Source: a virus. Taken from it: 64,000 nt of DNA. The stretch spans positions 32,001-96,000 of the IMG/VR virus record IMGVR_UViG_3300045988_122072. The stretch is one strand, 5' to 3'. The notes under the pieces were generated by a model that worked only from the letters and a program-made list of their open reading frames with translations, was not told the DNA's origin and made no database searches. Both the position numbers and the translations under genes were made by a program. Shown one piece after another: positions 5,313 to 62,340 of the stretch; within the stretch, counting starts at the first letter, position 1, and the number at the start of each line of letters is the position of its first letter.

Positions 5313-5336
5313 TTTTTGTTCCTCCTAATTTGTATT

Positions 5337-5525
5337 TTATTCATAATCCTCATCATACGAAATAGACATAGATACTGGCTTTTCTAGAAAATCTACAAAC
5401 AATCTAGATAATTCAATAAATTCACCAGTATCAGGGTTCTCAATACCAATAATGCCATCCTCGTCTAATCCAAGCACTCCCTTTGCAGAGAGTTTATAAT
5501 TCTTATTAATACTTGCCTTTGCCAT
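5337..5525 (-). CDS. hypothetical protein (62 aa)
   Basis: AGGAGG SD; tightly packed in the minus-strand operon. Confidence 0.65.
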   Translation of the reverse strand: MAKASINKNYKLSAKGVLGLDEDGIIGIENPDTGEFIELSRLFVDFLEKPVSMSISYDEDYE

Positions 5526-5541
5526 ATTATGTTCCTCCTAA

Positions 5542-6252
5542 TCATTCAAGTTCGTCGGCTTTTGTTGAAACAATACCTCTATGATTGGTCGTTAAATGAC
5601 AAATCTGTGCATATGGTTCATCTTTGAAATGTTCAATATATTTAACAAAACCACTATTTTCTGGATGGTGGTACAAATCACATTGTCCACTATGTCCGAT
5701 TACAATAGTTTTAGAAGTATCAGAAATTCTTGTTAAAACCTTTTTTAATTCATCTGTATACATATTTTGTGATTCTTCAATAATAACAACTTTATTTTCT
5801 AAATTGCATCCTCTTAGATAAACATGAGAAATGCAATCAATATATCCAGTTCCATTCTTTTGATTTTCTACTCCTTCTTGGATGACAGAAGTAAATGGAT
5901 TAATTCCAAGCTTCGCAAGTGCATCATATAATGGAGTAGTGTAAATAGATACTTTTTCATCAGCGCTACCCGGAAGAAATCCAAGTTTTTCTTCCTGAAC
6001 AGGGCTAACTATATACACGATGCCATCATACTCGCCATGTTGCACTAAAAGATTTGCAGCAGCTACAGCCATTAACGTCTTGCCTGTACCAGCTCTCGCG
6101 TTCGCAAATACGATTAATTTATCTGGATTCAAAATGGCATTTACAAATTCCTTTTGCTCGTTATCTAATTTAAGACCATAAAAAGGGTGCCCTTCAACAG
6201 TTTTTGGGGCGTCCCCGTACTCATTTGTAACAGTCTTTTTCTTTGTAGCCAT
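5542..6252 (-). CDS. phoH: PhoH-like ATPase
   Basis: 236 aa with Walker A ARAGTGKT and the PhoH-type Walker B/Q motif VVIIEESQN. GGAGGG SD. Confidence 0.8.
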   Translation of the reverse strand: MATKKKTVTNEYGDAPKTVEGHPFYGLKLDNEQKEFVNAILNPDKLIVFANARAGTGKTLMAVAAANLLVQHGEYDGIVYIVSPVQEEKLGFLPGSADEKVSIYTTPLYDALAKLGINPFTSVIQEGVENQKNGTGYIDCISHVYLRGCNLENKVVIIEESQNMYTDELKKVLTRISDTSKTIVIGHSGQCDLYHHPENSGFVKYIEHFKDEPYAQICHLTTNHRGIVSTKADELE

Positions 6253-6266
6253 ATAGTCCCTCCAAA

Positions 6267-6881
6267 TTATAGAATTTCATCAATATCTTTAATAATTCCA
6301 TCAACCATGCCAAGAGTAACAGCCTCTTCACATGTGATATACCATTCTGTACTCTTTTTTTTATTAAAAGTCTTAGAGTCAATGGATGTTTTATCTAAAA
6401 TATAATTTCTCATCTTGTCAACAAGGGCTTTATATTGTTTCATTTGCTCAGTTGTTTGCTCAAATGAACCACCACAGCCACCACTTCCGCTATGAAGCAA
6501 ATAATTAGTATTTGGCATAGCAAAACGCTTATGTCCAGATAATGCAATTAAACATGCTGCGGAATATGCCCATCCCATATTAACAGTTATAATTGGTGTC
6601 TTACTGGTTTCTACAAGTCCAACAAAAGACAATGTATCTTCTAATGTACCGCCAGGAGAATTAATAAATATCTTAATTGGCTTTCTATCCTCTGGTGGAG
6701 TACCTTTGTCTTCTCTGTTCCAATTCATAATCAGCTTTGATGCTTCAAATAGACTTTCATCAATTTCGCCCTCGATCCAAATACTACGATTTTCTACATC
6801 CTTATAGAACTGTAGGAGTTCTGGGTTTGGCAACGAAAGATTCTCAATTGAATTTGGAATTGCGATTGCTAATTGTTCCAT
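6267..6881 (-). CDS. clpP: ClpP-family serine protease
   Basis: 204 aa. INSPGG, GWAYSAACLI (Ser position) and LLHSGSGG (His position) align with the ClpP core. GGGAGG SD. Confidence 0.8.
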   Translation of the reverse strand: MEQLAIAIPNSIENLSLPNPELLQFYKDVENRSIWIEGEIDESLFEASKLIMNWNREDKGTPPEDRKPIKIFINSPGGTLEDTLSFVGLVETSKTPIITVNMGWAYSAACLIALSGHKRFAMPNTNYLLHSGSGGCGGSFEQTTEQMKQYKALVDKMRNYILDKTSIDSKTFNKKKSTEWYITCEEAVTLGMVDGIIKDIDEIL

Positions 6882-6978
6882 GTTTTGTACCTCCCTGTTG
6901 TGTGTTTTATTTAATAAAATATAAGCTTTTTTCTTATATCATTACTATTTTGTTCTAACTTTAGTTTACTGAAATGCC

Positions 6979-7007
6979 AAAAATGCAAGAGAATTCCTTG
7001 CATTTTT
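6979..7007. terminator. bidirectional AT-rich terminator hairpin after the GIY-YIG gene
   Basis: AAAAATGCAAG-agaattc-CTTGCATTTTT, a perfect 11-bp stem. Confidence 0.6.
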
Positions 7008-7038
7008 GACATTAATTTTGTGTTGTCAAATTAACAAA

Positions 7039-7758
7039 TCACTTCACATTTTTATTGTACCATCGCTTTTGCCTCTCTCTATTAATCAATTTGTTATGCT
7101 CTGTTTGACATTTTTCACATCTACAAATTGCTGTTGCCAATGGATTAATAACTACATCAATTCCACAATCAATACAAACAATCACTTTATTTTGAGCTGG
7201 CGCACGCTTTCTGCAATCTTCACATCTTTTAATTTTATTAGAATATGGGATCTTCTTAGTATGAGATTTGTTCCACTTTAATTTAATTTCAAATAATGCT
7301 CCGCATTGTGAACACTTTCTTATGGCAGGATCTCCATTGTTAAATCTTTCTTGATATTTTTCAAAAGACTGCTCTTTATGCCTTCTTCTTATTGTATTTT
7401 GCATAGAAGAAATTTGCTTTAATATAGAAGATTTAGAACGAATATGATTCTCTCCGCCAGATTTTAAATTATATCCCTTATCTGGATTTGTAGTTTCTAA
7501 TTTTTCTATTAATAATTCTTCAAAATGATTAGCTTCTTCCTGAGTTAAATTTGAAGCAATGACTTCATGCTCAAAATTATCCCAACCATATTTTTGAATA
7601 GCATGATAAAAATATGAAGATAATTCATACCCTAATCCATTGCGCCAACGTTTATTTGGATCGTCTCCATATTTCGTTTGTCCAACATATTTTTTTTCAT
7701 TTATCTTATTAATATGCATATAAACACAATAAGTATCATTGTAAATTTCCATTATCAC
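7039..7758 (-). CDS. GIY-YIG homing endonuclease-like protein with C-terminal zinc ribbons
   Basis: YCVYMH...KKYVGQT (GIY-YIG), RWRNG, YGWDNFEHEVI. C-terminal CSQC...CEDC...CIDC...CEKC. Start is GTG 7758 or ATG 7752. Confidence 0.8.
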   Translation of the reverse strand: MIMEIYNDTYCVYMHINKINEKKYVGQTKYGDDPNKRWRNGLGYELSSYFYHAIQKYGWDNFEHEVIASNLTQEEANHFEELLIEKLETTNPDKGYNLKSGGENHIRSKSSILKQISSMQNTIRRRHKEQSFEKYQERFNNGDPAIRKCSQCGALFEIKLKWNKSHTKKIPYSNKIKRCEDCRKRAPAQNKVIVCIDCGIDVVINPLATAICRCEKCQTEHNKLINRERQKRWYNKNVK

Positions 7759-8635
7759 TCATTGCAACCCTCCTATTTTTCATCATCGCATTTCTCTGAT
7801 ATTCTAACTGCTTTTGATGTTGGCATTCTTCACATCTACAACTTCTCTTATTAGAAGATGCTACAATAAAATGAGTTCCACATTCAATACATTCAATTTC
7901 TTTAGTACCCATTGGTTCATAATTTTCTCTATGAATACCGCAATATTGCATAGCATTATTTCTTACACGGAACCATCTTCCGCACGCCTTACATCTTTTA
8001 TATCCACCATTTTTATAATTCAAAAATGCATAAGCAAGTTCCAAATAATCATATTCATCAAGCGTAAGAATAACTTCGCCCTCATCATGATCTACAAAAG
8101 CGGCAGTCAAGGCATTATAACCTATGCTAAAATTCTGTTTGAGCAATCCTTCCTTATATGCAAACCCAAAATATAAATCTCTATCTTTAGCTGGAATAAC
8201 AACCCTTGCAAACTTAAATATTTCAGAAGTCTTTGCATAGAATGTATCATTATCTCTTTGACTTTCGGCATTTTGATATTTTGCTAATGCTAAAATGACA
8301 AATGCAATTTTTTCTTTCCTTATATCATTTAAAGACATAATTTTGTCCATTTCTCTTTTTGTAATATTAATAGTATTTACATCTTTAATTTTATATTTAT
8401 AAGCCTTATTAATATCCTTATTAATGGTATTTATATACCCCTGATACATAAAACCATTATAATTTTGAGCCATAAAGTCAACAATTTTCCAAAATACATC
8501 ATTCTTATCTGCAGGATTTAATTGTGTATAATAAATTGCTGCATTCCAAATTGCTTGAGTTATACTAACTCCATCAATATTTTTATCCTCTATAATGCTA
8601 TAAATCCTACTTTTTTCATTAAAATTAAATCTCAT
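7736..8635 (-). CDS. hypothetical protein with C-terminal zinc-ribbon module
   Basis: 299 aa with GGAGGTGA SD. The C-terminal CKACG...CIECG...CRCEECQHQKQLEYQR resembles the C-terminus of the neighbouring GIY-YIG protein. Confidence 0.75.
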   Translation of the reverse strand: MRFNFNEKSRIYSIIEDKNIDGVSITQAIWNAAIYYTQLNPADKNDVFWKIVDFMAQNYNGFMYQGYINTINKDINKAYKYKIKDVNTINITKREMDKIMSLNDIRKEKIAFVILALAKYQNAESQRDNDTFYAKTSEIFKFARVVIPAKDRDLYFGFAYKEGLLKQNFSIGYNALTAAFVDHDEGEVILTLDEYDYLELAYAFLNYKNGGYKRCKACGRWFRVRNNAMQYCGIHRENYEPMGTKEIECIECGTHFIVASSNKRSCRCEECQHQKQLEYQRNAMMKNRRVAMSDNGNLQ

Positions 8636-12902: not shown

Positions 12903-13031
12903 AATAAAACCTCCAAAATTTAATCATTATACAATTGAAATACAATACTAATTTAAATATCAATACATGCACCCATGAGTTTATACTATTAAAATTTTCA
13001 TTTGAATTAATATTGTATTGTAATAAAAATA

Positions 13032-15004: not shown

Positions 15005-15247
15005 CTATAATTTTGTATTGTTATTAAAATATTTTTCCCAAGTAGAAGTAGGGCAGTCTAGATAATTTAGATCAATGTCGTCATTCCATTCAACTTGTGG
15101 CCCAGTCTGTTCATCTGCAAAATGACAAACACAATTTACAGCAACACCATCTAATGCATCTTGCTTGATTAGAGTCTTAATTTCGTCCAGAGATAGGTCG
15201 TCTTCTAGGTCGCAGACATATAACGTCATTTTATAAAGTTGTGCCAT
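15005..15247 (-). CDS. hypothetical protein (80 aa)
   Basis: ATG 15247 with GGAGGT SD, preceded by a leader box and promoter. The longer track ORF (to 15289) would overlap the promoter. Confidence 0.65.
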   Translation of the reverse strand: MAQLYKMTLYVCDLEDDLSLDEIKTLIKQDALDGVAVNCVCHFADEQTGPQVEWNDDIDLNYLDCPTSTWEKYFNNNTKL

Positions 15248-15277
15248 TTTCTGTACCTCCATTAATTTTGTACTGTT

Positions 15278-15672: not shown

Positions 15673-15710
15673 TTTTCACACCTCCTCATTAATTTTGTTT
15701 TGTTGAGTGG

Positions 15711-16693: not shown

Positions 16694-16703
16694 CTTTTCT
16701 GGC

Positions 16704-21231: not shown

Positions 21232-21266
21232 ACAATACAAAATTATTACTGAAAGGAAATAAAACC

Positions 21267-25378: not shown

Positions 25379-25455
25379 ACAAAATAGTTTGTCCTATAAT
25401 AGGGCAAACTAACACGAAACGAAAATACAATACGAAATTAAAGGGAGGAATAAAT

Positions 25456-26105: not shown

Positions 26106-26138
26106 TCTTACGCAATACAAAATTAACGGAGGCATCTT

Positions 26139-29149: not shown

Positions 29150-29179
29150 AACGATACAAAATTAAAGGAGGATTTCATT

Positions 29180-31743: not shown

Positions 31744-31771
31744 TTGACAGAATACAAAATTAATGTATAAT
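31744..31771 (+). promoter_or_regulatory. sigma-A type promoter with leader box in the spacer
   Basis: TTGACAgaatACAAAATTAAtgTATAAT. Confidence 0.6.
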
Positions 31772-32484: not shown

Positions 32485-32595
32485 ACAATACAAAATTAAT
32501 ATAAGGATGTGATATTTATGATTATTTGTAAACAATGTTTTAAAGGAGATGAACCGCGCAAGAAGGAAACAACACAAAATTAAGGAGGAACGAAA

Positions 32596-34322: not shown

Positions 34323-34351
34323 TTGACAAAACAAAATTAATGTGGTAAGAT
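34323..34351 (+). promoter_or_regulatory. sigma-A type promoter with leader box in the spacer
   Basis: TTGACAaaACAAAATTAAtgTGgTAAGAT (17-nt spacer). A second TTGACA lies at 34299. Confidence 0.5.
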
Positions 34352-35018: not shown

Positions 35019-35446
35019 GCTATGCTAATCAGAATTTTAATGAATGGCTTGCAGATAAGCAATTGAGCGGAAGATACAAGACAAAATTATATCTTGATGG
35101 TGATATAGAATGTCAAGCAGATCATAAAATCTATCATCTGAAAGGAATATATTATGTTGATTCAATGTATAATAATGGCGTTTACAGCTGCGTTAATGAA
35201 GATGGGATTGGAATAAGTGCAAAGCATAAAGATTTGGTTAGAATTGTTAAGCAAGTATATAACCAAAAGGATGTAGACAATTGGGTTAAATCTTCACGAG
35301 ATAAAAATCAGTATGTAGATACTTTCAACGGAACGCTTTGGTATATCGTATTGATGATTTTAGTAAGCTTATTTACTGGAAGGATTGTAGGCTGGATATT
35401 CATTACGATTGTATATTTTATATGGAAATATCAAAAACATAATTAA
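35015..35446 (+). CDS. hypothetical membrane-anchored protein (143 aa)
   Basis: C-terminal TM segment WYIVLMILVSLFTGRIVGWIFITIVYFIW. Confidence 0.7.
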   Translation: MSYANQNFNEWLADKQLSGRYKTKLYLDGDIECQADHKIYHLKGIYYVDSMYNNGVYSCVNEDGIGISAKHKDLVRIVKQVYNQKDVDNWVKSSRDKNQYVDTFNGTLWYIVLMILVSLFTGRIVGWIFITIVYFIWKYQKHN

Positions 35447-35463: not shown

Positions 35464-36444
35464 ATGAACGGAAGACTTGAAGCTGAATTAAATAAACAAA
35501 AGTTAATTAAAGACAAACTTAAATATTTGCCTAAAGTTTTCGAAGAATTTTATTATTACATGGATGAAGATGATAGATCATATAATACTATTGAGCATTA
35601 TATTGATTATAATGTAGAATTTATGAACTATATTACAAACGGAAATAAAGATGAATATTATTATAAAAATGTAAATTCAACGCACATCAAACAATTTATT
35701 AGTTCACAACGTACTAAAGAAATTAATGGAGAGCTGGTTAGAATCGGTGATAGCATTTTGGCTACAAAATTTTCAGCTATTAAAAAATTCTTTTCATTTT
35801 TAATTGATTCAAATTATATTGATGAAAATCCGGTAGAAGGAGTTCGAAGACCAAAAGTTAAAACAGATCATACGGTTACATTTCTTGAAGAAAACGAAAT
35901 CAATAAGTTGTTTTCAAATATTAAAACAATGGCAAATGAAAGATTATTAAATAGAGATTTGTGTATGTTCTCTTTATTTATTTCTACTGGTCTTAGAAAA
36001 TCTGCGTTAGTGCAGATCAATGTGGAAGATGTTAATTTTAAGACAAATACAATTAAGGTAATTGAAAAAGGAAGAAAGGAAAGGTTGATTAGTTTTGGCG
36101 GAAATATGAGACAGCTTTTATTAAACTGGATTCAAGATAGAAGAGATTATTTTAAAGTAGAAGAAAGTGGGCCATTATTTGTTTCTCAATGGAATAATAG
36201 AATGTCTACAAAAAATGTAGAAATGTTGTTAGCGAAGTATCTAGATGGCGTGAGCGATAAACATATCACAGTTCATAAACTTAGGGCGACCGCTGCAACC
36301 CAAATGGCAGCACATGATGTCCCGGTTCAGGTTATAAAGGAAATGTTGAATCATGAAAATGTTTCTACAACAATGAGATATGTTGCTGCAATTGACAGCC
36401 AGAAGCAAGAAGCAGTCAATATTCTTGATAGCATCGTGAAATAA
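35464..36444 (+). CDS. tyrosine recombinase/integrase (XerC/D-like)
   Basis: 326 aa with GLRKSAL, HKLRATAATQM and LNHENVSTTMRYV (R-H-R-Y catalytic pattern). Confidence 0.85.
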   Translation: MNGRLEAELNKQKLIKDKLKYLPKVFEEFYYYMDEDDRSYNTIEHYIDYNVEFMNYITNGNKDEYYYKNVNSTHIKQFISSQRTKEINGELVRIGDSILATKFSAIKKFFSFLIDSNYIDENPVEGVRRPKVKTDHTVTFLEENEINKLFSNIKTMANERLLNRDLCMFSLFISTGLRKSALVQINVEDVNFKTNTIKVIEKGRKERLISFGGNMRQLLLNWIQDRRDYFKVEESGPLFVSQWNNRMSTKNVEMLLAKYLDGVSDKHITVHKLRATAATQMAAHDVPVQVIKEMLNHENVSTTMRYVAAIDSQKQEAVNILDSIVK

Positions 36445-36446: not shown

Positions 36447-36475
36447 TTGACTAAATTAATATTGTATTGTATAAT
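36447..36475 (+). promoter_or_regulatory. sigma-A type promoter
   Basis: TTGACT-17 nt-TATAAT. The spacer carries the 18-nt repeat AATTAATATTGTATTGTA. Confidence 0.55.
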
Positions 36476-36501: not shown

Positions 36502-37389
36502 ATGTTTGACAAAGAACAAAAAGAGGCATTTATAAAGGAATATTTAAAAAGTAAGGTAGTTGCAAAGACTAGCCTTTATGCGGTTTTCAGAAAGACGGAA
36601 CCATTTGAAGAGAAATTAAATAAAGATGTATCACAATTTACAAGAGAAGAAATATTGGATATGTTTGCGCAATTCAGAGCGAAATCTGTAAATTCATTAT
36701 TAAATTACGCCATCATATTGAAGCATTATTCACGTTTAATGCGTGGAGAAAATGAATATGAATCAATTACAAAGGCAGATGTTGTGGATCTCATTGATAA
36801 AAGCGGAAATATATTATTAAGTAGAGAAGAACTTGATGATATTGAAGCGCAACTTTTAAACTGGTCAGATAAAGCCATAGTTGAACTACTTTGGGAGGGT
36901 ATATCTGGCAAAAATATGATTGATATATATTCGGTCTCAGAAGAATGTATACAAGGTGATATGCTGTGCGTTAATGGAAAAGAATTTTATATGACTAACA
37001 GATTAAAAGAATTGTTACTAAAGGCTTTTGCCGAAACAGAGATCATGAGCTATGGCAATACAATGCGAATAGTTGAAGTAGAAGGCAAAGGAAGACTTTA
37101 CAAGGAAAGAGCAAATACTAGAGGCGTCGATTCTGACGATCAAAAATTCCGTTATTTCTATCGTCGTATTCAAATATTCAGAGAGTATTTAGATATACCA
37201 GGACTAACCATGAAGAATCTTAGCGCATCTGGAATGTTTTACTATATTCAACTTGGTATAAAGGAAACAGGTCTAGCGCTTAGAGAGTTTTTAAAAACTT
37301 CAAAAGGAAAAGAATTAGCAATTCAATATGGATTTGCAGAAGACTATTATGTTGATACGATAGCACAGAAATACGAGCAATATATTTAA
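36502..37389 (+). CDS. hypothetical protein (295 aa)
   Basis: Lies downstream of the promoter and adjacent to the recombinase. No motif recognised. Confidence 0.75.
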   Translation: MFDKEQKEAFIKEYLKSKVVAKTSLYAVFRKTEPFEEKLNKDVSQFTREEILDMFAQFRAKSVNSLLNYAIILKHYSRLMRGENEYESITKADVVDLIDKSGNILLSREELDDIEAQLLNWSDKAIVELLWEGISGKNMIDIYSVSEECIQGDMLCVNGKEFYMTNRLKELLLKAFAETEIMSYGNTMRIVEVEGKGRLYKERANTRGVDSDDQKFRYFYRRIQIFREYLDIPGLTMKNLSASGMFYYIQLGIKETGLALREFLKTSKGKELAIQYGFAEDYYVDTIAQKYEQYI

Positions 37390-37463
37390 TTATGTTGCTC
37401 ATTATTCAAATGCTTACAGTACAAAATTAATTAGGATATTGCAGGAAATATACGAACTAATGT

Positions 37464-37492
37464 TTGCATGTTATGGAAAAGTATAGTATAAT
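37464..37492 (+). promoter_or_regulatory. possible promoter
   Basis: TTGCAT-17 nt-TATAAT. Confidence 0.45.
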
Positions 37493-37529: not shown

Positions 37530-37781
37530 ATGAGACAATTAATCAAAGCATTAAAAGAAATAGAGGGGGCAAATGTGGACATCCATACTGAGCATAAGCT
37601 CTTTGGTAAACAACATATTCAAATGAAGTTTGTACCTGAAACGGAAGCAGGATGGGGGTTCTGTGTGCGTGGACAGGCAATTTATATTGATAAAGATGAT
37701 ATTGTTTCATATGATATTGACAACGAAAAGGTGGAAATTAACGGAAAAATGATGCATATTAAAATTATTCCAAGGGCTTGA
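37530..37781 (+). CDS. hypothetical protein (83 aa)
   Basis: AAGGGGAGA SD before ATG 37530. Confidence 0.65.
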   Translation: MRQLIKALKEIEGANVDIHTEHKLFGKQHIQMKFVPETEAGWGFCVRGQAIYIDKDDIVSYDIDNEKVEINGKMMHIKIIPRA

Positions 37782-38102: not shown

Positions 38103-38141
38103 CACAATACAAAATTAATTTAAAAGGAGATATAAAGGCAT

Positions 38142-39284: not shown

Positions 39285-39307
39285 GTAGGGGGATTAATTC
39301 TCCCTAC
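39285..39307 (+). other. 9-bp hairpin after SSB-like gene (no T tract)
   Basis: GTAGGGGGA-ttaat-TCTCCCTAC. Confidence 0.4.
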
Positions 39308-39341
39308 AACACAAAATTAATTGATAAAAGGAGATAAGAAC

Positions 39342-44572: not shown

Positions 44573-44605
44573 CATAGTACAAAATTAATTGGAAGGTGAT
44601 AATAA

Positions 44606-46106: not shown

Positions 46107-46135
46107 GACAATACAAAATTAAAGGAGAAATAATT

Positions 46136-48389: not shown

Positions 48390-48638
48390 ATGGCAGAAAA
48401 AGATCAATTGTTGCAGAATATTTTATCACGTGTGGGACAATTTGAATATAATTTCGGATATGATTCTGTTAAGGCAATTTTTGTAAATGATTATGCATGG
48501 AAGCTGATTACAACGTACCGCATATATGAAATGCAATATTTCAATGGTGGTTATGGATGTGTCGGTAGGCTTTATGGATATTTAACGTACAGATATCATG
48601 ACGATAAGAATGCGCCAGATTTTTATATTGGCGTATAA
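48390..48638 (+). CDS. hypothetical protein (82 aa)
   Basis: AAGGAGGG SD before ATG 48390. Confidence 0.65.
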   Translation: MAEKDQLLQNILSRVGQFEYNFGYDSVKAIFVNDYAWKLITTYRIYEMQYFNGGYGCVGRLYGYLTYRYHDDKNAPDFYIGV

Positions 48639-48664
48639 CAGCACGAAATTAATGAGGTGATATT

Positions 48665-50678: not shown

Positions 50679-50706
50679 TACAATACGAAATTAATGGAGG
50701 ACAACA

Positions 50707-51226: not shown

Positions 51227-51613
51227 ATGACCTGTATCGAAAAGTACAACGAACAAAAAAATATAACAACCAAGATTATTAGCAATCTTAATAAGGCTAA
51301 GGGTCTTACTGCTATTGGAGAGAAAGACCCTCGCAATGATAAATATGGATTTAATTTTTACGACCATAGTATTTGGGGTGATGATATCCCTGTATATTTT
51401 CATGCGTCATATGGGTATTATGGGGATTCCGGTGGTTATAATGCTTGCTGCCCAGAGATGCAGAAGTATCTTTTAAGAGCACTTAATTATTATAAGGATG
51501 ATATTGTAAATTATATTATGGAACAAGCAGAAAAGGATAAGAATGATGCTCTGTTAGCTTGCAAGCAAGAAGCCGAGAGTATTTTAAAGCAAATTGAAGA
51601 GAAGACGTTTTGA
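51227..51613 (+). CDS. hypothetical protein (128 aa)
   Basis: AGGAGG SD. Confidence 0.7.
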   Translation: MTCIEKYNEQKNITTKIISNLNKAKGLTAIGEKDPRNDKYGFNFYDHSIWGDDIPVYFHASYGYYGDSGGYNACCPEMQKYLLRALNYYKDDIVNYIMEQAEKDKNDALLACKQEAESILKQIEEKTF

Positions 51614-51645
51614 GAATATGAAATTAATGGAGGAGGTGTGAGAGA

Positions 51646-52705: not shown

Positions 52706-55700
52706 ATGCAAAATTACCATCGTCATACAAGTTATAGCGAAGGTGATAGCGCTGCAATGCCTGAAGAATATGCGAAAAGAGCAGTAGAACTTGGGCACAA
52801 AGTCATTAGTTCTGTAGAGCATGGATGGCAAGGCTATTATCACAAAGCATTTGAATTGGCAAAAGAATATAATTTGAAATTTATTTTTGGTACAGAAGCA
52901 TATTGGGTCAAGGATCGTCAGAAAGAATATGAAGAATATGATAAAGAAACTGGTGAAGTTAAGAAAAATAAAGATGGAACAATTCGTACCAATAAAGATA
53001 AGTCAAATAACCATATAATTATTCTTGCTAAAAATGAGAATGGAAGACGATCCATAAATCGTATTTTGTCTGATGCCAACGAAACGGGATATTATTACAA
53101 GCCCAGAATTGACCTTGATTTAATTTTTTCACTTCCTGCAGATGATGTGTTTATTACAACTGCGTGTGTTGCGTTTTGGAAATATGAAGATAGTGATGAT
53201 ATTGTAAAGCACATGCATGATTATTTCAAAGATAATTTTATGCTAGAGATTCAGAATCATAATACTGCAAGACAGATTGCATTGAACAAGCATATTAAAG
53301 AATTGTCCGAGAAATATAACATTCCAATGATAGTTGGTCTTGACAGCCACTATATTTATCCAGAACAATCTGTAGAAAGAGATGATATTCTCGCTGGGCG
53401 CAATATCCAATTCGACGACAATGAAGTTGGTTGGTATATGGATTATCCAGATGACGACACTGTACATAAGAGATTTGCAGAACAGGGAGTGTTCGATGCA
53501 GAAACCGTGCAGAAAGCTATGGACAATACTGACATTCTGCTAACTTTTGATGACTATGATAATGTACCAGTATTTACTACTGATATTAAATTGCCTACAT
53601 TGTATCCAGACAAGACACAAGAGGCACGAAATAAAATATATAGCCAGCTTATTTCTAGACTTTTTAAAGACTACGTAAAACATGTTCCAAAGGACAAGTA
53701 TAAAGAATATTTTGATGGAGTTAAGCAAGAAGTATCTGTGTATAAAGAAACAGGGATGGTAGATTATCCATTAATGGACTACGCTATTATCAAACGTGGT
53801 ATTGAAAAGGGTGGACTAATTACAACTACTGGTCGTGGTAGTGCGGTTGGTTACTTTACAAATACTCTATGCGGATTTTCTAAGGTGGATAGATTTACAT
53901 CTCCTATTAAATTATATCCAGAGCGTTTCATTAGTAAGACAAGAATTCTTGAGACCCATAGCCTCCCAGATTTGGACATGAATCTCGGAACAGTAGAACC
54001 TTTTGCGGAAGCTCAGAAAGAGATTCTTGGAGAGGATCATGCATATCCAATGATTGCTTTCGGTACATTGAAGAAGAAGTCTGCGTTTAAACTTTATGCA
54101 AGAGCAACTAACTTGGATTATGAAATTGCTAATGAGATTTCTAAACAGCTTGATAAATATGAAGAAGCTGTTAAATATGCAGACGATGATGAAAAAGATG
54201 AAATTAATATTTACGATTTCATTGACGAGAAGTATAAGAAGTATATTGATCAGAGCAAAAAGTATTGGGGCGTAATTGACCATAAGAATAAAGCTCCTTG
54301 TGCATATCTTCTATATCAAGGAAGTATCAGAGAAGAAATTGGACTTATAAAGTGCAAAAGTGAGAGTACAAAGCGTGAATATATTACTGCTGTTATTGAT
54401 GGCGCAATTGCAGAAAAATATAAGTTCCTTAAAAATGATCTACTTAAAGTAGATGTCGTTCTGCTTATTGATATGATTTATAAGCGTATTGGAATCCCAG
54501 TACATACCGCTAGTGAAATTAGTGATCTTGTTGATGGAGATAAAAAAGTGTGGGATATTTATGCCAATGGATATACCATTGGTGTCAATCAGTGCGAAAA
54601 AGAATCTGCAATGAGGAAACTTAGAAAGTATAAACCTCAGAATATTTCAGAATTAGCTGCTTGGATTGCAGCAATTCGTCCTGCTTTTAAATCAATGTAT
54701 TCTAAGTTTGAATCACGAGAACATTTTGAATATGGAATTAAGGCTTTTGATAAGATTCTTCAAACACCACAATTCCCATATTCTTATATTCTTTATCAAG
54801 AGCAGAGTATGAATACACTAAACTATGCTGGGTTCCCTCTTGATGAGTGCTATGGCATCATTAAAGCTATTGCAAAGAAGCATCCAGAAAAGGTTCGTCC
54901 TTTGAAATCTAGATTCATTGAAGGATTCAAGAAGCGTATTATGGAAGACGATCATATTCCAGATGCAGAAGCAGAAGAAATGAGTGCAAAGGTGTGGCAG
55001 ATTATTGACGACTCCTGCGGTTACGGATTTAATAGTGCCCATGCTTATTGTATGGCTCTTGATAGCCTGTATTGTGCATGGCTAAAAGCTCATTATCCAT
55101 ATGAATTTTATGAAGTTCTTCTGCAGGTATTTTCTGATAAGGGCAAAAAGGATAAAGTTCAAGCGCTTAAACAGGAAATGCAAGGAGCTTTTGGAATTAA
55201 AGAGGGAGCATATAAATTTGGAGTAGATAATAGAAAATTTGTAGCAGATAAAGAAAATCATACAATCAATCCTTCATTATTATCAATCAAGGGTCTGAGC
55301 CAAGCTTGTGCCGATGATTTATATGAACTTTCACAAAGCAGACAGTTTAATAATTTTGTAGAACTTCTTCAAGCCATGACCAAAATTCCTAGTCTGAATT
55401 CTGCAAAAATAGACACGCTTATAAAGATTGGTTATTTCTCTCAATTTGGAAGCATAGGTACTTTACTACGTATAGTGGATCTCTATAATCTCTATGCAGG
55501 AAAGAAACTTCTCAAGAAAGATAAGTGCTCATTGCCTCCAGAAATTCTATCTAAGTATTGTACAGAAACCGCAAAGCAGTACAAAATTACCGATTCAGAC
55601 GGACTACTACAGGAACTATGTGGTATGATACCAAAGGACTGTCATGTACCATTGATGAGCGAGATTCAGTGGCAACAGGAATATCTCGGTTATTGTTCTA

Positions 55701-56088: not shown

Positions 56089-56120
56089 CACAATACAAAA
56101 TTAATGAAGGAGAATTTAAA

Positions 56121-59152: not shown

Positions 59153-59210
59153 CTAGACAGTAAGAAACACAAAACAAAATTAAAGTAAAATCAAAAAGGA
59201 GAATTGAGTT

Positions 59211-59797: not shown

Positions 59798-60661
59798 ATG
59801 GGTGGCGGTTCTTGGACGAGAGATAACTTTACTAGCTATGTAACTACTGCAAAGTGTGCAATGGTAGACGATTTTGGTGTTGTCAGAGGACTAAATAGTG
59901 TTCAGGATAATTTTAAATCGAGATGCCTAGTGGCGGAGCTTAATCCTAAAAATGTTGTTCGCGAGTGTGTAGATTCCGCAGAGCATCCCAATACAAAGCC
60001 TGTTATTCTAGCACTCGATGTCACTGGTAGTATGGGCAGTGCAGCCATGGAAGTTGCAAAGCAGATCAATGTTGTTATGACAAGCCTATATGAGAAGATG
60101 ACAGATGTTGAATTTATGATTATGGGCATTGGAGATCTTGCTTATGATAACGCTCCAATTCAGGCATCTCAGTTTGAATCAGATATCAGAATCGCAGAAC
60201 AGCTTGATAAAATTTATTTTGAGGGCGGTGGCGGCGGCAATTCTTATGAGTCCTATACTGCCGCATGGTATTTTGGGCTTAATCATACCAAACTAGATTG
60301 TTGGAATCGTGGGCAGAAGGGTGTTATTATTACAATGGGTGATGAACCTTTGAATCCGTATCTGCCTAAGAATACTCTATCTGTTGCGACTGGTGATAAC
60401 CTACAGGATGATGTTGAGACAGCTCAGCTTTACAAGGATGCTTCTGAGAAGTTTGATATCTACCATTTGTATGTAAAGCATGGGTATGGTCGTTATGAAG
60501 AAGCCGTTAAGGATACTTTCGGCAAGTTTCTTGATACGAATCATCTCAAGACTACATCTGTAAATAAGATTGCAGATGACATTATTGAGATTGTAACAAA
60601 TGCATTTACTGGAAGCGATACAAGTACATTTGTAAATACTAGCGAAGGAATTTCTTGGTAA
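59798..60661 (+). CDS. von Willebrand factor A (vWA) domain protein
   Basis: MIDAS-type ILALDVTGSMGS, followed by alternating beta/alpha-like segments (IITMGDEP). Confidence 0.7.
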   Translation: MGGGSWTRDNFTSYVTTAKCAMVDDFGVVRGLNSVQDNFKSRCLVAELNPKNVVRECVDSAEHPNTKPVILALDVTGSMGSAAMEVAKQINVVMTSLYEKMTDVEFMIMGIGDLAYDNAPIQASQFESDIRIAEQLDKIYFEGGGGGNSYESYTAAWYFGLNHTKLDCWNRGQKGVIITMGDEPLNPYLPKNTLSVATGDNLQDDVETAQLYKDASEKFDIYHLYVKHGYGRYEEAVKDTFGKFLDTNHLKTTSVNKIADDIIEIVTNAFTGSDTSTFVNTSEGISW

Positions 60662-60675
60662 GAGGAGATAAACAC

Positions 60676-61824
60676 ATGTCTAATGTTAAAGTAGTAATCG
60701 GTAGCAATTTTGGGGACGAAGGAAAAGGATTGATGACTGATTATTTCTGCGCAGAAGCAAAAAAGCGGAATGAATCCTGTATTGTTGTTTTATCTAATGG
60801 CGGAGCGCAGAGAGGGCACACTGTGGTTACGCCAGATGGCATTAGACATGTGTTTCATCATTTTGGTTCTGGCACTTTTGCAGAAGCCCCTACATATTTT
60901 AGTGAGCAATATATTTTGAATCCTATGACTTTCAGAAAAGAGCATGAAGAATTGGATTCTTTAGGCTTTAAGCCACTCGTTTGTGCTCATTGGAATTGCA
61001 GATGGTCAACGCCGTATGACGTGATCGTAAATCAAATTCTTGAAGATAGTCGTGGAGAAAATCGACATGGATCTTGCGGCATGGGAATCTGGGAAACTAT
61101 CTGCAGATATACAAGTACTGGAGCACCATCATTGCGGCACTTTAATATGATGAGTGAAGAATATAAAGTTCAATTTCTAAAAAATATTAGAGATAAATAT
61201 ATGCCGCAGAGATTAGCGTCTGCGAATCCAGATGTAGTAAAACAGTGGGAAGAAATTCTATATTCTGATAATCTAATTTATAATTTTATTGCGGACATTC
61301 AGTTCATGTGTTCGCATATGGTTTTTGATTATGGACGCATATTGAGACGATATGACAATGTTGTATTTGAAAATGGGCAAGGTCTGCTACTAGATCAGAA
61401 CCAGACAAGATACGGAGACAATACAACTCCTAGCAATACTGGAATTCAGAACCCGCATGTGATTATTGAAAAGTATTTATTTGGCGCTAACGTTGAAGTG
61501 TGTTATGTTACAAGAACATACCTAACAAGACATGGTGCTGGGGCTTTTGATGGTGAATGTGATAAATCTGAAATCAATGGTTCTATGAAAGATAAGACCA
61601 ATGTGCCAAATCCGTATCAGGGCAGTATTCGATATGGTAAGCTGGATGTTAATGAACTTGTAAACAGAATCAAAAAGGATATTGGGGAGCATTCTTATAA
61701 TGTATCTTTGGCAGTGACACATTTGAACGAGTTTGAAAACAAAGAGTTATTGGCACTAAAGGAACTAAATGTTAAGTATTTGTCTTATAATGAGACTAGA
61801 AAATTAACAGAAAAAATTTCCTGA
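60676..61824 (+). CDS. adenylosuccinate synthetase (PurA)/PurZ-family enzyme, divergent
   Basis: 382 aa. GSNFGDEGKGLMTDY (PurA P-loop GDEGKGK), GGAQRGHT (GGHNAGHT), FENGQGLLLD (FEGAQGTLLD) and TRHGAGAF (TRVGAGPF). The TKLD guanine box is replaced by THLN. Confidence 0.75.
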   Translation: MSNVKVVIGSNFGDEGKGLMTDYFCAEAKKRNESCIVVLSNGGAQRGHTVVTPDGIRHVFHHFGSGTFAEAPTYFSEQYILNPMTFRKEHEELDSLGFKPLVCAHWNCRWSTPYDVIVNQILEDSRGENRHGSCGMGIWETICRYTSTGAPSLRHFNMMSEEYKVQFLKNIRDKYMPQRLASANPDVVKQWEEILYSDNLIYNFIADIQFMCSHMVFDYGRILRRYDNVVFENGQGLLLDQNQTRYGDNTTPSNTGIQNPHVIIEKYLFGANVEVCYVTRTYLTRHGAGAFDGECDKSEINGSMKDKTNVPNPYQGSIRYGKLDVNELVNRIKKDIGEHSYNVSLAVTHLNEFENKELLALKELNVKYLSYNETRKLTEKIS

Positions 61825-61830
61825 AAGTAC

Positions 61831-61858
61831 TTGACAAATAAAAAATATATGATATAAT
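61831..61858 (+). promoter_or_regulatory. sigma-A type promoter (AGACAG subclass)
   Basis: acTTGACAAATaaaaaatataTGaTATAATatGGACAGT, with the leader box at 61881. Confidence 0.7.
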
Positions 61859-61910
61859 ATGGACAGTTGAAAGAAACAAAACAAAATTAATTGAAAAGGA
61901 GCAAGAAAAA

Positions 61911-62240
61911 ATGATTAAGTATTATCACCTGAGCGATGGCACGACGATTGGCGAGCTGCGGGGTACAAAGTATGACTGTATTAACCGGATTGCAAAGGCA
62001 ATGGGTATGACAAAGAGCCTGTGCTTCGATCCTAGTAAGTATCTTATGAATGATGTCTTCAAGGCTGCGTCTAAGCCCTATGGCGGCGACGAGTACGACA
62101 AGGAATATGGCGAACAGGAAGTAAAGCGCAAGGTCATGCGGAAGTATTATAAGCAGCTTGATAGACTGTCTTCTGCGTTCGTAGAGGATCTCAATAAGGC
62201 GATGTTCGAAGCATCTTGGCGGCTTACAAAAAATTCTTAA
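61911..62240 (+). CDS. hypothetical protein (109 aa)
   Basis: AAAGGAG SD. Confidence 0.7.
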   Translation: MIKYYHLSDGTTIGELRGTKYDCINRIAKAMGMTKSLCFDPSKYLMNDVFKAASKPYGGDEYDKEYGEQEVKRKVMRKYYKQLDRLSSAFVEDLNKAMFEASWRLTKNS

Positions 62241-62247
62241 AAACCTC

Positions 62248-62275
62248 TTGACAAATAAAAAATTTATGATATAAT
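62248..62275 (+). promoter_or_regulatory. sigma-A type promoter (AGACAG subclass) driving the structured-RNA array
   Basis: ctcTTGACAAATaaaaaatttaTGaTATAATacAGAtAGT, with the leader box at 62295. No SD or CDS follows for about 540 nt. Confidence 0.7.
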
Positions 62276-62340
62276 ACAGATAGTTCAAGACAATACAAAA
62301 TTAAAGTTCCTGAGCACGAACTGAAAAGGCTCAACTATAT

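What the first reader, a model, noticed from the sequence alone, without database searches (positions are those of the whole stretch)
5326..62304. Conserved 10-mer ACAAAATTAA fused to Shine-Dalgarno sites: 18 exact, strand-matched intergenic copies
Exact copies, always on the coding strand of the downstream gene, are as follows. Minus strand: 7012-7021, 15262-15271 and 15689-15698. Plus strand, 10 nt each, starting at 26117, 29156, 31754, 32490, 32574, 34331, 37421, 38109, 39311, 44579, 46113, 56095, 59174, 61881 and 62295. One-change variants occur at 5326-5335 (minus) and at plus-strand starts 21237, 24543, 25432, 48643, 50685, 51618 and 62413. The last variant lies inside the insert of tRNA-like gene 1. 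The box is usually extended to CAATACAAAATTAAT and is followed within 0-12 nt by the SD, for example ACAAAATTAAAGGAGGA. A rough composition-based estimate gives about one chance occurrence of this 10-mer on both strands of the window. The box occurs both just downstream of consensus promoters (near +1) and with no promoter nearby, and in at least three cases (7012, 31754, 34331) it lies immediately downstream of a TTGACA -35-like hexamer, i.e. in spacer position. It could therefore be a translational enhancer or standby site, an RNA-processing site defining mRNA 5' ends, an operator, or the promoter of the phage RNA polymerase. It appears absent between 16.8 and 21.2 kb.
Basis: seen in the sequence. 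Interest (0 to 1): 0.75.

Follow-up and report, generated by a model that had tools for sequence, protein, structure and literature searches.

The report
Operator boxes of an SPβ-type phage repressor
The repeated 10-mer is the core of a 17-bp one-directional DNA box found in or just after most strong early promoters of a large SPβ-like phage. It is most likely the docking site of the phage's integrase-like master repressor, as already shown for Bacillus phages SPβ and phi3T, and not a translation signal.

Summary
ACAAAATTAA occurs 19 times against about 1 expected, and it is the core of a 17-nt asymmetric box, ACAA-n-ACAAAATTAA-T-G. There are 28 box sites: 27 point the same way as the local genes and about 24 are intergenic.

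The window is a distant SPβ-like phage. It has a YonO-like RNA polymerase and an SPβ-like replication module. It also encodes, at 36502-37389, a homologue of MrpR/SroF/YopR, the integrase-fold master repressor of SPβ and phi3T. That repressor is known to bind, as a monomer, a long asymmetric A/T-rich "repeated element" (SPBRE, Phi3TRE) scattered through the phage genome.

The box has the same architecture as those elements. It lies in the spacer of σA-type promoters, or starts 1-17 nt after the -10, or lies promoter-less against a Shine-Dalgarno site. Nine of the 11 perfect consensus promoters in the window carry it. An inverted variant sits in the spacer of the repressor gene's own promoter, and one copy precedes tRNA-like genes.

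Best reading (confidence about 0.65): an operator array for the MrpR-like repressor. Translation-enhancer, RNA-processing and phage-RNAP-promoter readings fit less well. This is a new member of a known kind and is moderately interesting.

The parts
7010..7026 (-). Box ACAACACAAAATTAATG, 25.4 bits. It lies 13 nt after the stop of the GIY-YIG gene, inside a weak TTGACA-16-AAAAAT promoter-like site, and is followed by the 12-bp hairpin 6978-7008.
13005..13021 (-). Box variant ACAATACAATATTAATT, the same variant as at the repressor promoter. It is intergenic with no SD nearby.
15005..15021 (-). Box ACAATACAAAATTATAG with no promoter. It abuts the SD (GAGGT) of gene 14716-14991.
15260..15276 (-). 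Box starting 1 nt after the -10 of perfect promoter 15305-15278. It abuts the SD.
15687..15703 (-). Box starting 7 nt after the -10 of perfect promoter 15739-15711. It abuts the SD of the HTH-protein gene 15310-15672.
21232..21248 (+). Box variant ACAATACAAAATTATTA with no promoter, directly after the upstream stop codon.
25427..25443 (+). Box ACAATACGAAATTAAAG, 26 nt after TAGACT-18-TATAAT. It abuts the SD.
26112..26128 (+). Box after the hairpin 26088-26103, with no promoter. It abuts the SD.
29151..29167 (+). Box with no promoter. It fills the 30-nt gap between the upstream stop codon and the SD.
31749..31765 (+). Box forming the 16-nt spacer of perfect promoter TTGACA...TATAAT (31744-31771), just after terminator-like hairpin 31715-31738.
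32485..32501 (+). Box with no promoter, starting directly after the stop codon of the upstream gene.
32569..32585 (+). Box with no promoter that overlaps the SD (..TTAAGGAGG). It lies 84 nt after the previous box; relatives have a gene of about 1.1 kb between the two.
34326..34342 (+). Box in the 17-nt spacer of TTGACA-17-TAAGAT (34323-34351), with TG before the -10.
35076..35092 (+). Weaker box-like site (17.5 bits) inside ORF 35015-35446. Conserved in L131. Doubtful.
36454..36470 (-). Inverted box variant ACAATACAATATTAATT. On the + strand it forms the spacer of the promoter of the repressor gene.
36447..36475 (+). Promoter TTGACT-17-TATAAT of the MrpR-like gene, with the inverted box as its spacer.
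36502..37389 (+). MrpR/SroF/YopR-like integrase-fold repressor, 295 aa. This is the proposed binder of the box.
35464..36444 (+). Tyrosine integrase (YopP-like) immediately upstream of the repressor gene, as in the SPβ and phi3T sro operon.
37416..37432 (+). Box 27 nt after the repressor stop codon and about 30 nt upstream of the SOS-box-controlled promoter. No SD nearby.
37453..37466 (+). LexA (SOS) box-like CGAACTAATGTTTG overlapping the -35 (TTTGCA, 37463) of the promoter whose -10 (TATAAT) ends at 37492.
37530..37781 (+). 83-aa ORF downstream of the SOS-like box. It is a positional candidate for a Sar-like antirepressor, with no sequence similarity to Sar of phi3T.
38104..38120 (+). Box with no promoter, 3 nt before the SD of gene 38142-39281.
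39306..39322 (+). Box after a hairpin (tagggggattaattctcccta), with no promoter, before the SD of the Sak4-like AAA_24 gene.
44574..44590 (+). Box starting 1 nt after the -10 of perfect promoter 44545-44572.
46108..46124 (+). Box starting 1 nt after the -10 of perfect promoter 46079-46106. It abuts the SD.
48638..48654 (+). Box variant ACAGCACGAAATTAATG with no promoter. It fills a 26-nt gap.
50680..50696 (+). Box ACAATACGAAATTAATG starting 1 nt after TTGACA-17-TATAAA (from 50650).
51613..51629 (+). Weak variant AGAATATGAAATTAATG (16.4 bits) with no promoter. It abuts the SD. The orthologous site in L086 reads AGAGTACAAAATTAATG.
55576..55592 (+). Weak box-like site (16.9 bits) inside the DNA polymerase III alpha gene. 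Doubtful.
56090..56106 (+). Best-scoring box (26.8 bits), starting 1 nt after the -10 of perfect promoter 56061-56088.
59169..59185 (+). Box starting 16 nt after the -10 of perfect promoter 59125-59152.
61876..61892 (+). Box starting 17 nt after the -10 of perfect promoter 61831-61858.
62290..62306 (+). Box starting 14 nt after the -10 of perfect promoter 62248-62275. It is followed by two tRNA-like genes (62341-62464, 62473-62590), not by an SD or ORF.

Best explanation
The box ACAA-n-ACAAAATTAA-T-G is the operator ('repeated element') of the phage's MrpR/SroF-type master repressor, the 295-aa integrase-fold protein encoded at 36502-37389.

By analogy with SroF of phi3T, one repressor monomer would clamp around one asymmetric A-tract-rich box. 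This step is established for phi3T and inferred here.

A repressor bound in any of the three promoter positions would exclude or trap the host σA RNA polymerase and keep the early and replication genes silent (inferred). The three positions are (i) the -35/-10 spacer, (ii) from 1 nt after the -10, covering the start site, and (iii) 7-17 nt after the -10.

An inverted, slightly different box in the spacer of the repressor gene's own promoter would give autoregulation (inferred).

The promoter-less copies pressed against Shine-Dalgarno sites are the least certain part. Most likely they are extra clamps that block read-through transcription at gene starts, and/or copies that travelled with gene cassettes inserted at a box.

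Release would come from a LexA-controlled small antirepressor. A positional candidate lies directly downstream of the repressor gene (inferred).
For: 1. Repressor homologue in the window. The 36502-37389 product hits Pfam MrpR_N_CB (53.7 bits, cut-off 27) and MrpR_C_cat (27.6 bits, cut-off 27). It is 25% identical to SPβ YopR over 281 aa, E 3e-13. It also matches the solved YopR/MrpR chains 8bj6, 8bjv and 8a0a and the chain 9rd5_H ('Core-binding (CB) domain-containing protein'), with E about 1e-9.
2. DNA-reading residues. In the alignment to chain 9rd5_H, residues that carry the numbering reported for DNA reading in SroF-phi3T are kept in the window protein: L25, Y26, K233/F234 (here K215/F216) and R238 (here R221). 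F216, Y220 and R221 are invariant across the family. That 9rd5 is SroF-phi3T is my inference from the matching residue numbers; the database name does not say so.
3. Synteny. The window matches SPβ and phi3T gene order: YonO-like RNAP on the opposite strand, then integrase, MrpR-like repressor, Sak4-like protein, DnaB-like helicase, RecJ-like protein and PolIIIα.
4. Known function of the family. MrpR binds the 15-bp SPBRE at 10 promoter regions of SPβ (ChAP-seq, EMSA and reporters; PMC10516654). SroF-phi3T binds a 26-bp asymmetric box as a monomer (10.1101/2025.11.27.690993).
5. Same architecture in the reference phages. I re-derived the SPβ sites and scanned 50 kb of phi3T. In both, the boxes are co-oriented with the genes. 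In SPβ they lie in promoter spacers, in phi3T at the -35 edge, and in both some are promoter-less and abut the SD. phi3T shows 17 boxes with at most 2 mismatches to the core in 50 kb.
6. Promoter association here. 9 of the 11 perfect TTGACA-N16/17-TATAAT promoters found by the scan tool carry the box. Across the window and its relatives, 56 of 73 unique perfect promoters carry it in three fixed registers: 16 in the spacer, 5 inverted in the spacer, 25 starting 1-2 nt after the -10, 9 starting 3-20 nt after, and 1 further away.
7. The inverted variant in the repressor promoter spacer is conserved in all relatives examined.
8. The box is unchanged while flanks diverge, and it stays with MrpR-like proteins down to 69% identity.
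9. One copy controls a promoter of tRNA-like genes, so a translation role cannot apply there.
10. An SOS-like box plus a small ORF lie next to the repressor gene, as described for sar. The box is conserved in 10 of 12 relatives.
Against: - No binding data exist for this phage. The protein-to-box link is by homology and architecture only.
- The box sequence is not significantly similar to SPBRE (11/17, 35% of shuffles reach this) or to Phi3TRE (12/17, 16% of shuffles). The window matrix does not recover the SPBRE sites in SPβ.
- About half of the sites (13-15 of 28) have no recognisable σA promoter, so a simple promoter-occlusion model does not explain them.
- Strict co-orientation and SD proximity would also fit an RNA-level role.
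- No covariation test was possible. All relatives found keep the same box, and the one more distant phage examined, Perkons, gave no clear element.
- No integrated prophage relatives were found in 185k representative genomes, so a lysogeny role is unproven.
- The AlphaFold model of the protein was too poor to use (mean pLDDT 50.8).
- Other DNA-binding proteins exist in the window, for example the HTH protein at 15310-15672.
Confidence: 0.65

Rival explanations
1. RNA-level leader element. The A/U-rich ACAAAAUUAA just 5' of the SD acts in the mRNA as a translational enhancer or standby site, a 5'-end stabiliser, or the target of an RNA-binding repressor or endoribonuclease, in the style of T4 RegA or RegB.
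For: - The box is strictly on the sense strand.
- In about 17 of 28 sites the SD-like motif starts 2 nt inside to 5 nt after the box end.
- In sites that start 1 nt after the -10, the predicted start site falls at the first A of the 10-mer, so the box would be the 5' end of the mRNA.
- SD-abutting copies also occur in SPβ and phi3T.
- SPβ even carries Phi3TRE-like boxes next to SDs, at genes that are not among the ten reported MrpR peak regions.
Against: - 16 forward spacer-type copies in the family would not be transcribed from their own promoters.
- The inverted copy in the repressor promoter is conserved.
- The copy at 62290 precedes tRNA-like genes, and other copies have no SD.
- The distance to the SD varies from overlapping by 2 nt to 18 nt after the box.
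- SD proximity follows from intergenic gaps of 26-60 nt that the box and the SD fill.
- 61 co-directional gaps shorter than 25 nt hold only 2 sites, so most genes do without the box.
Confidence: 0.1
2. Promoter or promoter element for phage-directed transcription, recognised by the YonO-like single-chain RNA polymerase (8625-11471) or by host polymerase carrying a phage factor. This would resemble the many copies of the T7 promoter in front of T7 genes.
For: - The box is highly conserved, one-directional, intergenic and present in many copies immediately upstream of genes.
- A phage RNAP gene is present.
- Promoter-less copies would gain a rationale.
- The YonO promoter sequence is still undefined.
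Against: - In SPβ, YonO starts at a single late promoter upstream of yonK. The region bracketed by the published primers holds no SPBRE core, and its one box-like stretch is not conserved in SPbetaL1.
- The SPβ and phi3T repeated elements are bound by the repressor.
- The boxes here concentrate in the early and replication module, not in the region below 7 kb that is the late module by synteny.
- In several sites the SD overlaps or starts right at the box end, so a start site would have to lie inside the box.
- The inverted copy would fire antisense into the integrase gene.
Confidence: 0.07
3. Cassette-boundary sequence. The box is mainly a short homology, or a site for the neighbouring YopP-like tyrosine recombinase, at which gene cassettes are exchanged. 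It is kept by recombination history rather than by regulation.
For: - L137 has promoter + box + NUMOD3 endonuclease cassette + a second, promoter-less box + gene, where L136 has promoter + box + the same gene. L134 versus L133 shows the same with a GIY-YIG cassette.
- Boxes 32485 and 32569 flank a remnant of a gene that is present in relatives.
- 21 of 126 homology breakpoints lie within 20 nt of a box, against 2.5% of the sequence.
- A tyrosine integrase of unknown role sits next to the repressor gene.
Against: - Among intergenic breakpoints the enrichment is modest: 31% observed against about 19% expected.
- The box is a single asymmetric arm with no inverted half-sites or central region of the kind tyrosine recombinases use.
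- The fixed registers in promoters and the autoregulatory copy point to regulation.
- This reading explains how copies spread, not why they stay perfect.
Confidence: 0.08
4. The box is an operator, but for a different DNA-binding protein of the phage or host, not for the MrpR-like protein. One candidate is the HTH protein at 15310-15672.
For: Other DNA-binding proteins are encoded in the window. The box sequence is not detectably related to SPBRE or Phi3TRE.
Against: - A 17-nt non-palindromic site suits a monomeric clamp rather than a dimeric HTH protein.
- The architecture matches the SroF and MrpR elements in two reference phages.
- An inverted copy lies in the MrpR-like gene's own promoter.
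Confidence: 0.1

Closest known systems
SPBRE (SPβ repeated element), bound by MrpR/YopR/SroF of Bacillus phage SPβ
   Same: - It is an asymmetric A/T-rich element of 15-20 bp with about 11 copies, and every copy is co-oriented with the downstream gene.
- Copies lie in the spacer of σA-type promoters (TAGACA-17-TATAAT) or abut the SD downstream of a promoter.
- The repressor is an integrase-fold protein encoded after a YopP-like integrase.
- The overall genome layout is the same.
   Different: - The sequence differs: ACAAATACAAATAATATGTAT against ACAATACAAAATTAATG. The similarity is not significant.
- The repressors are only 25% identical.
- Density here is about five times higher: 28 sites in 64 kb against 11 in 134 kb.
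- Many more copies here are promoter-less.
- No YopQ-like gene lies between the integrase and the repressor here.
- No arbitrium genes were identified; only part of the window's proteins was scanned.
Phi3TRE, bound by SroF of phage phi3T (crystal structure of the complex)
   Same: - A monomeric clamp reads a long one-directional box containing A-tracts.
- Boxes are dense (17 with at most 2 mismatches to the core in 50 kb), co-oriented, promoter-adjacent or SD-abutting.
- An antirepressor gene under a LexA box lies near the repressor gene. Here there is an SOS-like box plus a small ORF.
   Different: - In phi3T the box usually sits just upstream of or against the -35. Here it sits in the spacer or after the -10.
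- The conserved length here is 17-20 bp, against 24-26 bp contacted in phi3T.
- The candidate antirepressor shows no sequence similarity to Sar of phi3T.
Lambda-type operators (CI/Cro at OR and OL)
   Same: Repressor sites overlap early promoters, and there is an autoregulated repressor promoter.
   Different: Lambda operators are palindromic, bound by dimers, and clustered at two loci. Here there are single asymmetric sites scattered at more than 25 loci.
T7-type phage RNA polymerase promoters
   Same: Many near-identical, one-directional copies lie in front of genes.
   Different: Here the copies overlap host-type promoters in fixed registers, one copy is inverted, and the homologous phage SPβ uses one YonO promoter of another kind.
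T4 RegA translational operators and A/U-rich translational enhancers
   Same: An A/U-rich sequence next to the ribosome-binding site of many early genes.
   Different: Spacer-type, inverted and tRNA-gene copies cannot act in mRNA translation.
PeSL promoter-stem-loop cassettes of T4-like phages (mobile regulatory cassettes)
   Same: Conserved regulatory sequences lie at the borders of exchangeable gene cassettes. The comparison with PeSLs rests on my own knowledge of that literature.
   Different: No stem-loop is involved here. Breakpoint enrichment is modest once intergenic location is taken into account.

Membership tests
MrpR/SroF/YopR integrase-fold phage repressors (protein at 36502-37389) | N-terminal core-binding and C-terminal catalytic-like domains of the MrpR family | tested here: met
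   Pfam PF22822 scores 53.7 bits (cut-off 27). PF22823 scores 27.6 bits (cut-off 27) and covers only residues 109-179. All 120 listed relatives carry both domains in the precomputed annotation.
MrpR/SroF/YopR integrase-fold phage repressors (protein at 36502-37389) | Sequence homology to the solved YopR/MrpR/SroF structures | tested here: met
   phmmer hits: 9rd5_H at 6e-10 over residues 2-279; 8bj6, 8bjv and 8a0a at about 1e-9. BLASTP against SPβ YopR: 25% identity over 281 aa, E 3e-13.
MrpR/SroF/YopR integrase-fold phage repressors (protein at 36502-37389) | Integrase-like three-dimensional fold with loss of recombinase catalytic residues | tested here: inconclusive
   The AlphaFold2 model from a 12-sequence alignment has mean pLDDT 50.8 and pTM 0.32, too poor for a fold search. 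Catalytic residues were not mapped.
MrpR/SroF/YopR integrase-fold phage repressors (protein at 36502-37389) | Gene context: downstream of a YopP-like tyrosine integrase in an SPβ-like early region | tested here: met
   The integrase (PF00589, 7e-35) lies at 35464-36444, directly upstream. SPβ has yopP-yopQ-yopR and phi3T has genes 95-96-97. A yopQ equivalent is absent here.
MrpR/SroF/YopR integrase-fold phage repressors (protein at 36502-37389) | Specific binding to the repeated element and repression of lytic promoters | not testable with these tools
   Needs EMSA, ChIP or reporter assays.
SPBRE/Phi3TRE-type repeated operator elements | Non-palindromic A/T-rich box of 15-26 bp, in many dispersed copies in the phage genome | tested here: met
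   A 17-nt box at 28 sites; 19 exact 10-mer cores against 1.05 expected.
SPBRE/Phi3TRE-type repeated operator elements | Located within or next to σA-type promoters of early genes | tested here: met
   9 of 11 perfect promoters in the window. 56 of 73 across the family, in fixed registers. About half of the sites have no promoter, as also seen in SPβ and phi3T.
SPBRE/Phi3TRE-type repeated operator elements | Co-orientation with the downstream gene | tested here: met
   27 of 28 here. 11 of 11 SPBRE sites in SPβ. All phi3T boxes with at most 2 mismatches to the core.
SPBRE/Phi3TRE-type repeated operator elements | Sequence relatedness to SPBRE or Phi3TRE | tested here: not met
   Best ungapped matches are 11/17 and 12/17, reached by 35% and 16% of shuffles respectively. 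A cross-scan does not find SPBRE sites. The reference phages also differ from each other, because each repressor has its own box, so this is not a strict requirement.
SPBRE/Phi3TRE-type repeated operator elements | Co-occurrence and co-variation of the box with its repressor | tested here: inconclusive
   The box is present wherever MrpR-like proteins of 69-99% identity were found, but it never changes, so there is no covariation signal. Perkons (25% identity) showed no clear element.
Phage single-chain RNAP promoters (YonO type) | Sequence at the mapped YonO start region of SPβ resembles the element | tested here: not met
   The region between the published primers (SPβ 60549-60357, minus strand) has no SPBRE core. 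Its only box-like stretch (ACACAAAAC) is not conserved in SPbetaL1.

The most novel reading that the evidence does not exclude
The promoter-less boxes that abut Shine-Dalgarno sites are not passive copies. In this reading each one is a repressor clamp placed at the start of a gene cassette. It would act as a transcriptional roadblock, giving gene-by-gene silencing of a roughly 160-kb phage, and would also be the junction at which cassettes such as homing-endonuclease genes are inserted. The array would then be a combined silencing and cassette-exchange system, possibly with an added role for the same sequence in the mRNA leader.
Probability: 0.12. Interest if true: 0.7.

Novelty: new member of a known kind. 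Interest (0 to 1): 0.4.

Why it matters
- It extends the recently described integrase-fold repressor system (MrpR/SroF with its scattered one-way operators and an SOS-controlled antirepressor) beyond Bacillus arbitrium phages. The new setting is a distant, uncultivated family of roughly 160-kb phages known only from metagenomes.
- It gives a ready-made, testable regulon map: 28 sites, three promoter registers and an autoregulatory inverted site.
- The high density, and the fact that about half of the sites lack a promoter, raise a concrete question. That feature is also visible in the phi3T and SPβ sequences. Do clamp-like repressors also work as roadblocks or mark cassette borders?
- For annotation, the box is a reliable marker of early gene starts and of this phage family.

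Tried and rejected
1. megablast of 8 kb against the phage collection found no match. The window has no close cultured relative.
2. Operator sequence homology to SPBRE or Phi3TRE is not significant, so I dropped that argument and kept only the architecture.
3. I looked for a fourth data point in Psychrobacillus phage Perkons, which has MrpR-like and YonO-like genes. k-mer analysis showed only the -10 hexamer followed by TAAGTT, with no clear dispersed box.
4. Two scans of representative bacterial genomes for prophage relatives of the repressor found nothing, so the host remains unknown.
5. The structure prediction of the repressor was of low confidence, so no fold search was run.
6. The candidate antirepressor showed no meaningful similarity to Sar of phi3T.
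7. Breakpoints are enriched at boxes, but the enrichment is mostly explained by intergenic location.
8. The YonO promoter idea: I located the SPβ P_YonO region through the published primer. It has no SPBRE core and no conserved similarity to the box.
9. The exact copy at 15419 and the variants at 24543 and 62413 score below 10 bits with the 17-nt matrix, so I treat them as chance or undecided.
10. RNA folding of the leaders was considered but not run. An A/U-rich box would be unpaired in any case, so the result would not discriminate.

Full report

ACAAAATTAA occurs 19 times in the window, 15 on the + strand and 4 on the - strand. Dinucleotide-preserving shuffles give a mean of 1.05 and a maximum of 4. 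The 19th copy, at 15419-15428 (-), lies inside an ORF and lacks the flanking conservation.

It is the most frequent 10-mer in the window. Aligning the copies shows a longer box, ACAA-n-ACAAAATTAA-T-G. A matrix scan finds 28 sites at or above 16 bits, whereas shuffles gave about 2.5 hits even at the looser 10-bit threshold.

27 of 28 sites point the same way as the local genes: - strand below about 16 kb, + strand above. About 24 of 28 are intergenic although 87% of the window is coding.

5326 is a one-base deletion form and 51618 has two changes.

**2. What is the window?**

It is a low-GC (about 35%) phage-like sequence with no close relative among deposited phages.
- The 948-aa protein at 8625-11471 is a YonO-type two-barrel RNA polymerase. 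It hits Pfam RdRP at 7.5e-15 and is 37% identical to the Clostridium phage c-st protein and about 27% to the SPβ-group proteins.
- The + strand carries, in SPβ order, a tyrosine integrase, a Sak4-like ATPase, a DnaB-like helicase, a DHH/RecJ-like protein and DNA polymerase III alpha (compare).
- Related contigs of 80-170 kb are common in metagenomes. No prophage copy was found in representative bacterial genomes.

**3. The key gene**

The 295-aa product of 36502-37389, directly after the integrase, belongs to the MrpR/SroF/YopR family.
- It hits Pfam MrpR_N_CB at 53.7 bits and MrpR_C_cat at 27.6 bits, both with a cut-off of 27.
- It is 25% identical to SPβ YopR over 281 aa, E 3e-13.
- It matches the solved YopR/MrpR chains and chain 9rd5_H at E about 1e-9.

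In SPβ this protein is the master repressor. It binds the 15-bp SPBRE at ten promoter regions (PMC10516654). In phi3T it binds a 26-bp asymmetric A-tract box as a monomeric clamp and is displaced by a LexA-controlled antirepressor, Sar (10.1101/2025.11.27.690993).

In the alignment to chain 9rd5_H, several residues line up with the positions the preprint reports for DNA reading in SroF-phi3T. L25 and Y26 are kept. K233/F234 correspond to K215/F216 and R238 to R221, while H237 becomes Y220. F216, Y220 and R221 are invariant in the family. That chain 9rd5_H is SroF-phi3T is my inference from the matching residue numbers.

**4. Position of the box relative to promoters**

The scan tool finds 11 perfect TTGACA-N16/17-TATAAT promoters in the window, and 9 of them carry the box. 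The box takes three promoter positions:
- (a) It is the promoter spacer itself. There are two registers: TTGAC[A-GAATACAAAATTAATG]TATAAT and TTG[ACAA-n-ACAAAATTAATG]tgGTATAAT. Sites 31749 and 34326 are of this kind, and relatives have many more.
- (b) It starts exactly 1 nt after the -10. Sites 15260, 44574, 46108, 50680 and 56090 are of this kind.
- (c) It starts 7-17 nt after the -10. Sites 15687, 59169, 61876 and 62290 are of this kind.

Over the window and its relatives, 56 of 73 unique perfect promoters carry the box: 16 in the spacer, 5 inverted in the spacer, 25 starting 1-2 nt after the -10, 9 starting 3-20 nt after, and 1 further away.

The inverted copies are all at one place, the spacer of the promoter of the MrpR-like gene (window 36447-36475). 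They always have the same core variant, ACAATATTAA, and are conserved in relatives whose repressor is only 69% identical.

The copy at 62290 follows a perfect promoter and precedes two tRNA-like genes, not an ORF.

**5. Comparison with the experimentally studied phages**

I re-derived the SPβ element from the upstream regions of the ten ChAP-seq genes. The consensus is (T)AGACAAATACAAA[T/A]AATATGTAT(ATAAT). It has 11 sites, all co-oriented with the downstream gene. They are either the spacer of TAGACA-17-TATAAT promoters (yonP, yorE, yorZ, yosX, yorM), or lie downstream of a promoter and abut the SD (yopV, yopM, the second yonX site).

In 50 kb of phi3T, 17 boxes lie within 2 mismatches of the AAGAATAAAAATAAAATTA core, and all are co-oriented. 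Some lie against the -35 and some are promoter-less against an SD.

The sequences themselves are not significantly alike. That is expected for repressors only 25% identical, but it means the link rests on architecture and on the presence of the repressor homologue.

**6. Why not translation, processing or a phage-RNAP promoter?**

Spacer-type copies are not transcribed from their own promoter. The inverted copy and the tRNA-gene copy cannot serve translation. The box-to-SD distance runs from a 2-nt overlap to 18 nt, and some sites have no SD. SD contact follows from gap size. Of 39 co-directional gaps of at least 25 nt, 22 hold a box, and the box plus the SD often fill the gap. The 61 gaps shorter than 25 nt hold only 2 sites.

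For the RNAP idea, SPβ YonO uses one late promoter. I placed that region through the published primer at SPβ 60573-60550. It contains no SPBRE core, and its only box-like stretch is not conserved in SPbetaL1. Neither rival is excluded as a secondary role.

**7. The promoter-less copies**

About half of the sites have no recognisable promoter. Comparison of relatives shows one way they arise. In L136 the order is promoter, box, gene. In L137 a NUMOD3 endonuclease cassette sits between that box and a second, perfect, promoter-less box in front of the same gene. L134 versus L133 shows the same with a GIY-YIG cassette. In the window, boxes 32485 and 32569 flank an 84-nt remnant of a gene that is present in relatives.

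Homology breakpoints are enriched near boxes: 21 of 126 against 2.5% of the sequence. Among intergenic breakpoints the excess is modest, 31% against about 19% expected.

I therefore treat cassette traffic as the origin of many copies. A roadblock function of a DNA-encircling repressor is a plausible but untested reason for keeping them.

**8. Supporting context**

Directly after the repressor gene come a box (37416-37432) and then CGAACTAATGTTTG. This is the only GAAC-N4-GTTY match in the window, against 3.9 expected by chance, so location rather than number is the point. It overlaps the -35 of a promoter that drives an 83-aa ORF. The arrangement is conserved in 10 of 12 relatives. It mirrors the LexA-controlled sar gene described for SPβ-like phages, but the protein shows no similarity to Sar of phi3T.

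**9. Verdict**

The finding is real and biologically meaningful. It is best explained as the operator array of an MrpR/SroF-type repressor (confidence about 0.65). That makes it a new member of a known kind, in a distant uncultivated phage family. What remains open, and mildly novel, is the role of the many promoter-less copies.

Noticed in passing
window 62341-62464 and 62473-62590 (+): Two tRNA-like genes are found by Rfam (48.7 and 42.6 bits) but not by ARAGORN. Each carries an insert of about 50 nt, by length against the 71-nt tRNA model. The first insert contains GCAAAATTAATG, which resembles the 3' part of the box. They are transcribed from perfect promoter 62248-62275, which carries an operator box.
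   Followed up: partly
window 37453-37466 and 37530-37781 (+): An SOS-box-like sequence overlaps the -35 of a promoter for an 83-aa ORF directly after the repressor gene, and is conserved in 10 of 12 relatives. The ORF is a candidate LexA-controlled antirepressor with no sequence similarity to Sar of phi3T.
   Followed up: partly
window 37778-37805 (+) and the leader to about 37840: This is one of the two perfect promoters without a box. Its leader can form the hairpin AAGGGCAC...GTGCCCTT and precedes ORF 37878-38102. The promoter and leader are conserved in relatives. They might be expressed while the other promoters are repressed.
   Followed up: no
window 55981-56008 (+): A second perfect promoter without a box lies 80 nt upstream of the box-carrying promoter 56061-56088, giving a tandem arrangement.
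   Followed up: no
window about 16000-24000: This stretch has higher GC (41-43% against about 34% elsewhere), unclear gene orientation between 16 and 19.8 kb, several strong hairpins (17193-17220, 17279-17306, 18013-18042), and no box between 15.7 and 21.2 kb. None of the six ORFs between 16.8 and 21.7 kb that were scanned hit Pfam. It may be a different module or cargo.
   Followed up: partly
window 6978-7008: A perfect 12-bp hairpin (CAAAAATGCAAG / CTTGCATTTTTG) starts inside the 3' end of box 7010-7026. About 90 nt of untranslated sequence follows before gene 6267-6881. The position (two genes after the YonO-like gene) recalls the SPβ late-promoter and ncRNA region, but no sequence similarity was seen.
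   Followed up: partly
window 7039-7758 (-); L133, L134, L137: Homing-endonuclease genes (GIY-YIG in the window next to the RNAP gene; NUMOD3 and GIY-YIG cassettes in relatives) are inserted immediately after operator boxes.
   Followed up: partly
SPβ NC_001884: 132771, 120664, 113688, 90642 (+): SPβ carries phi3T-type boxes ((T)AGAATAAAAATAAAAT..) directly in front of SDs, although the ten reported MrpR peak regions carry the different SPBRE. They may be relics of recombination with phi3T-like phages, or a hint at a repressor-independent role.
   Followed up: no
window 8625-11471 (-): A YonO-like single-chain two-barrel RNA polymerase (948 aa). Its closest deposited relatives are in Clostridium phage c-st and Enterocloster phages (36-37% identity).
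   Followed up: partly
window 60655-61824 (+): A phage-encoded adenylosuccinate synthetase-like protein (Pfam PF00709, 1.4e-29), an auxiliary nucleotide-metabolism gene.
   Followed up: no
class-A promoters, e.g. window 44545-44572, 56061-56088; L133 around 17390: The spacers of promoters whose box starts 1 nt after the -10 share the pattern ACAAAT-nnn-AAAT-n-TATG. This loosely resembles both the box and the SPβ SPBRE, and could be a second, degenerate operator in tandem with the perfect one.
   Followed up: partly
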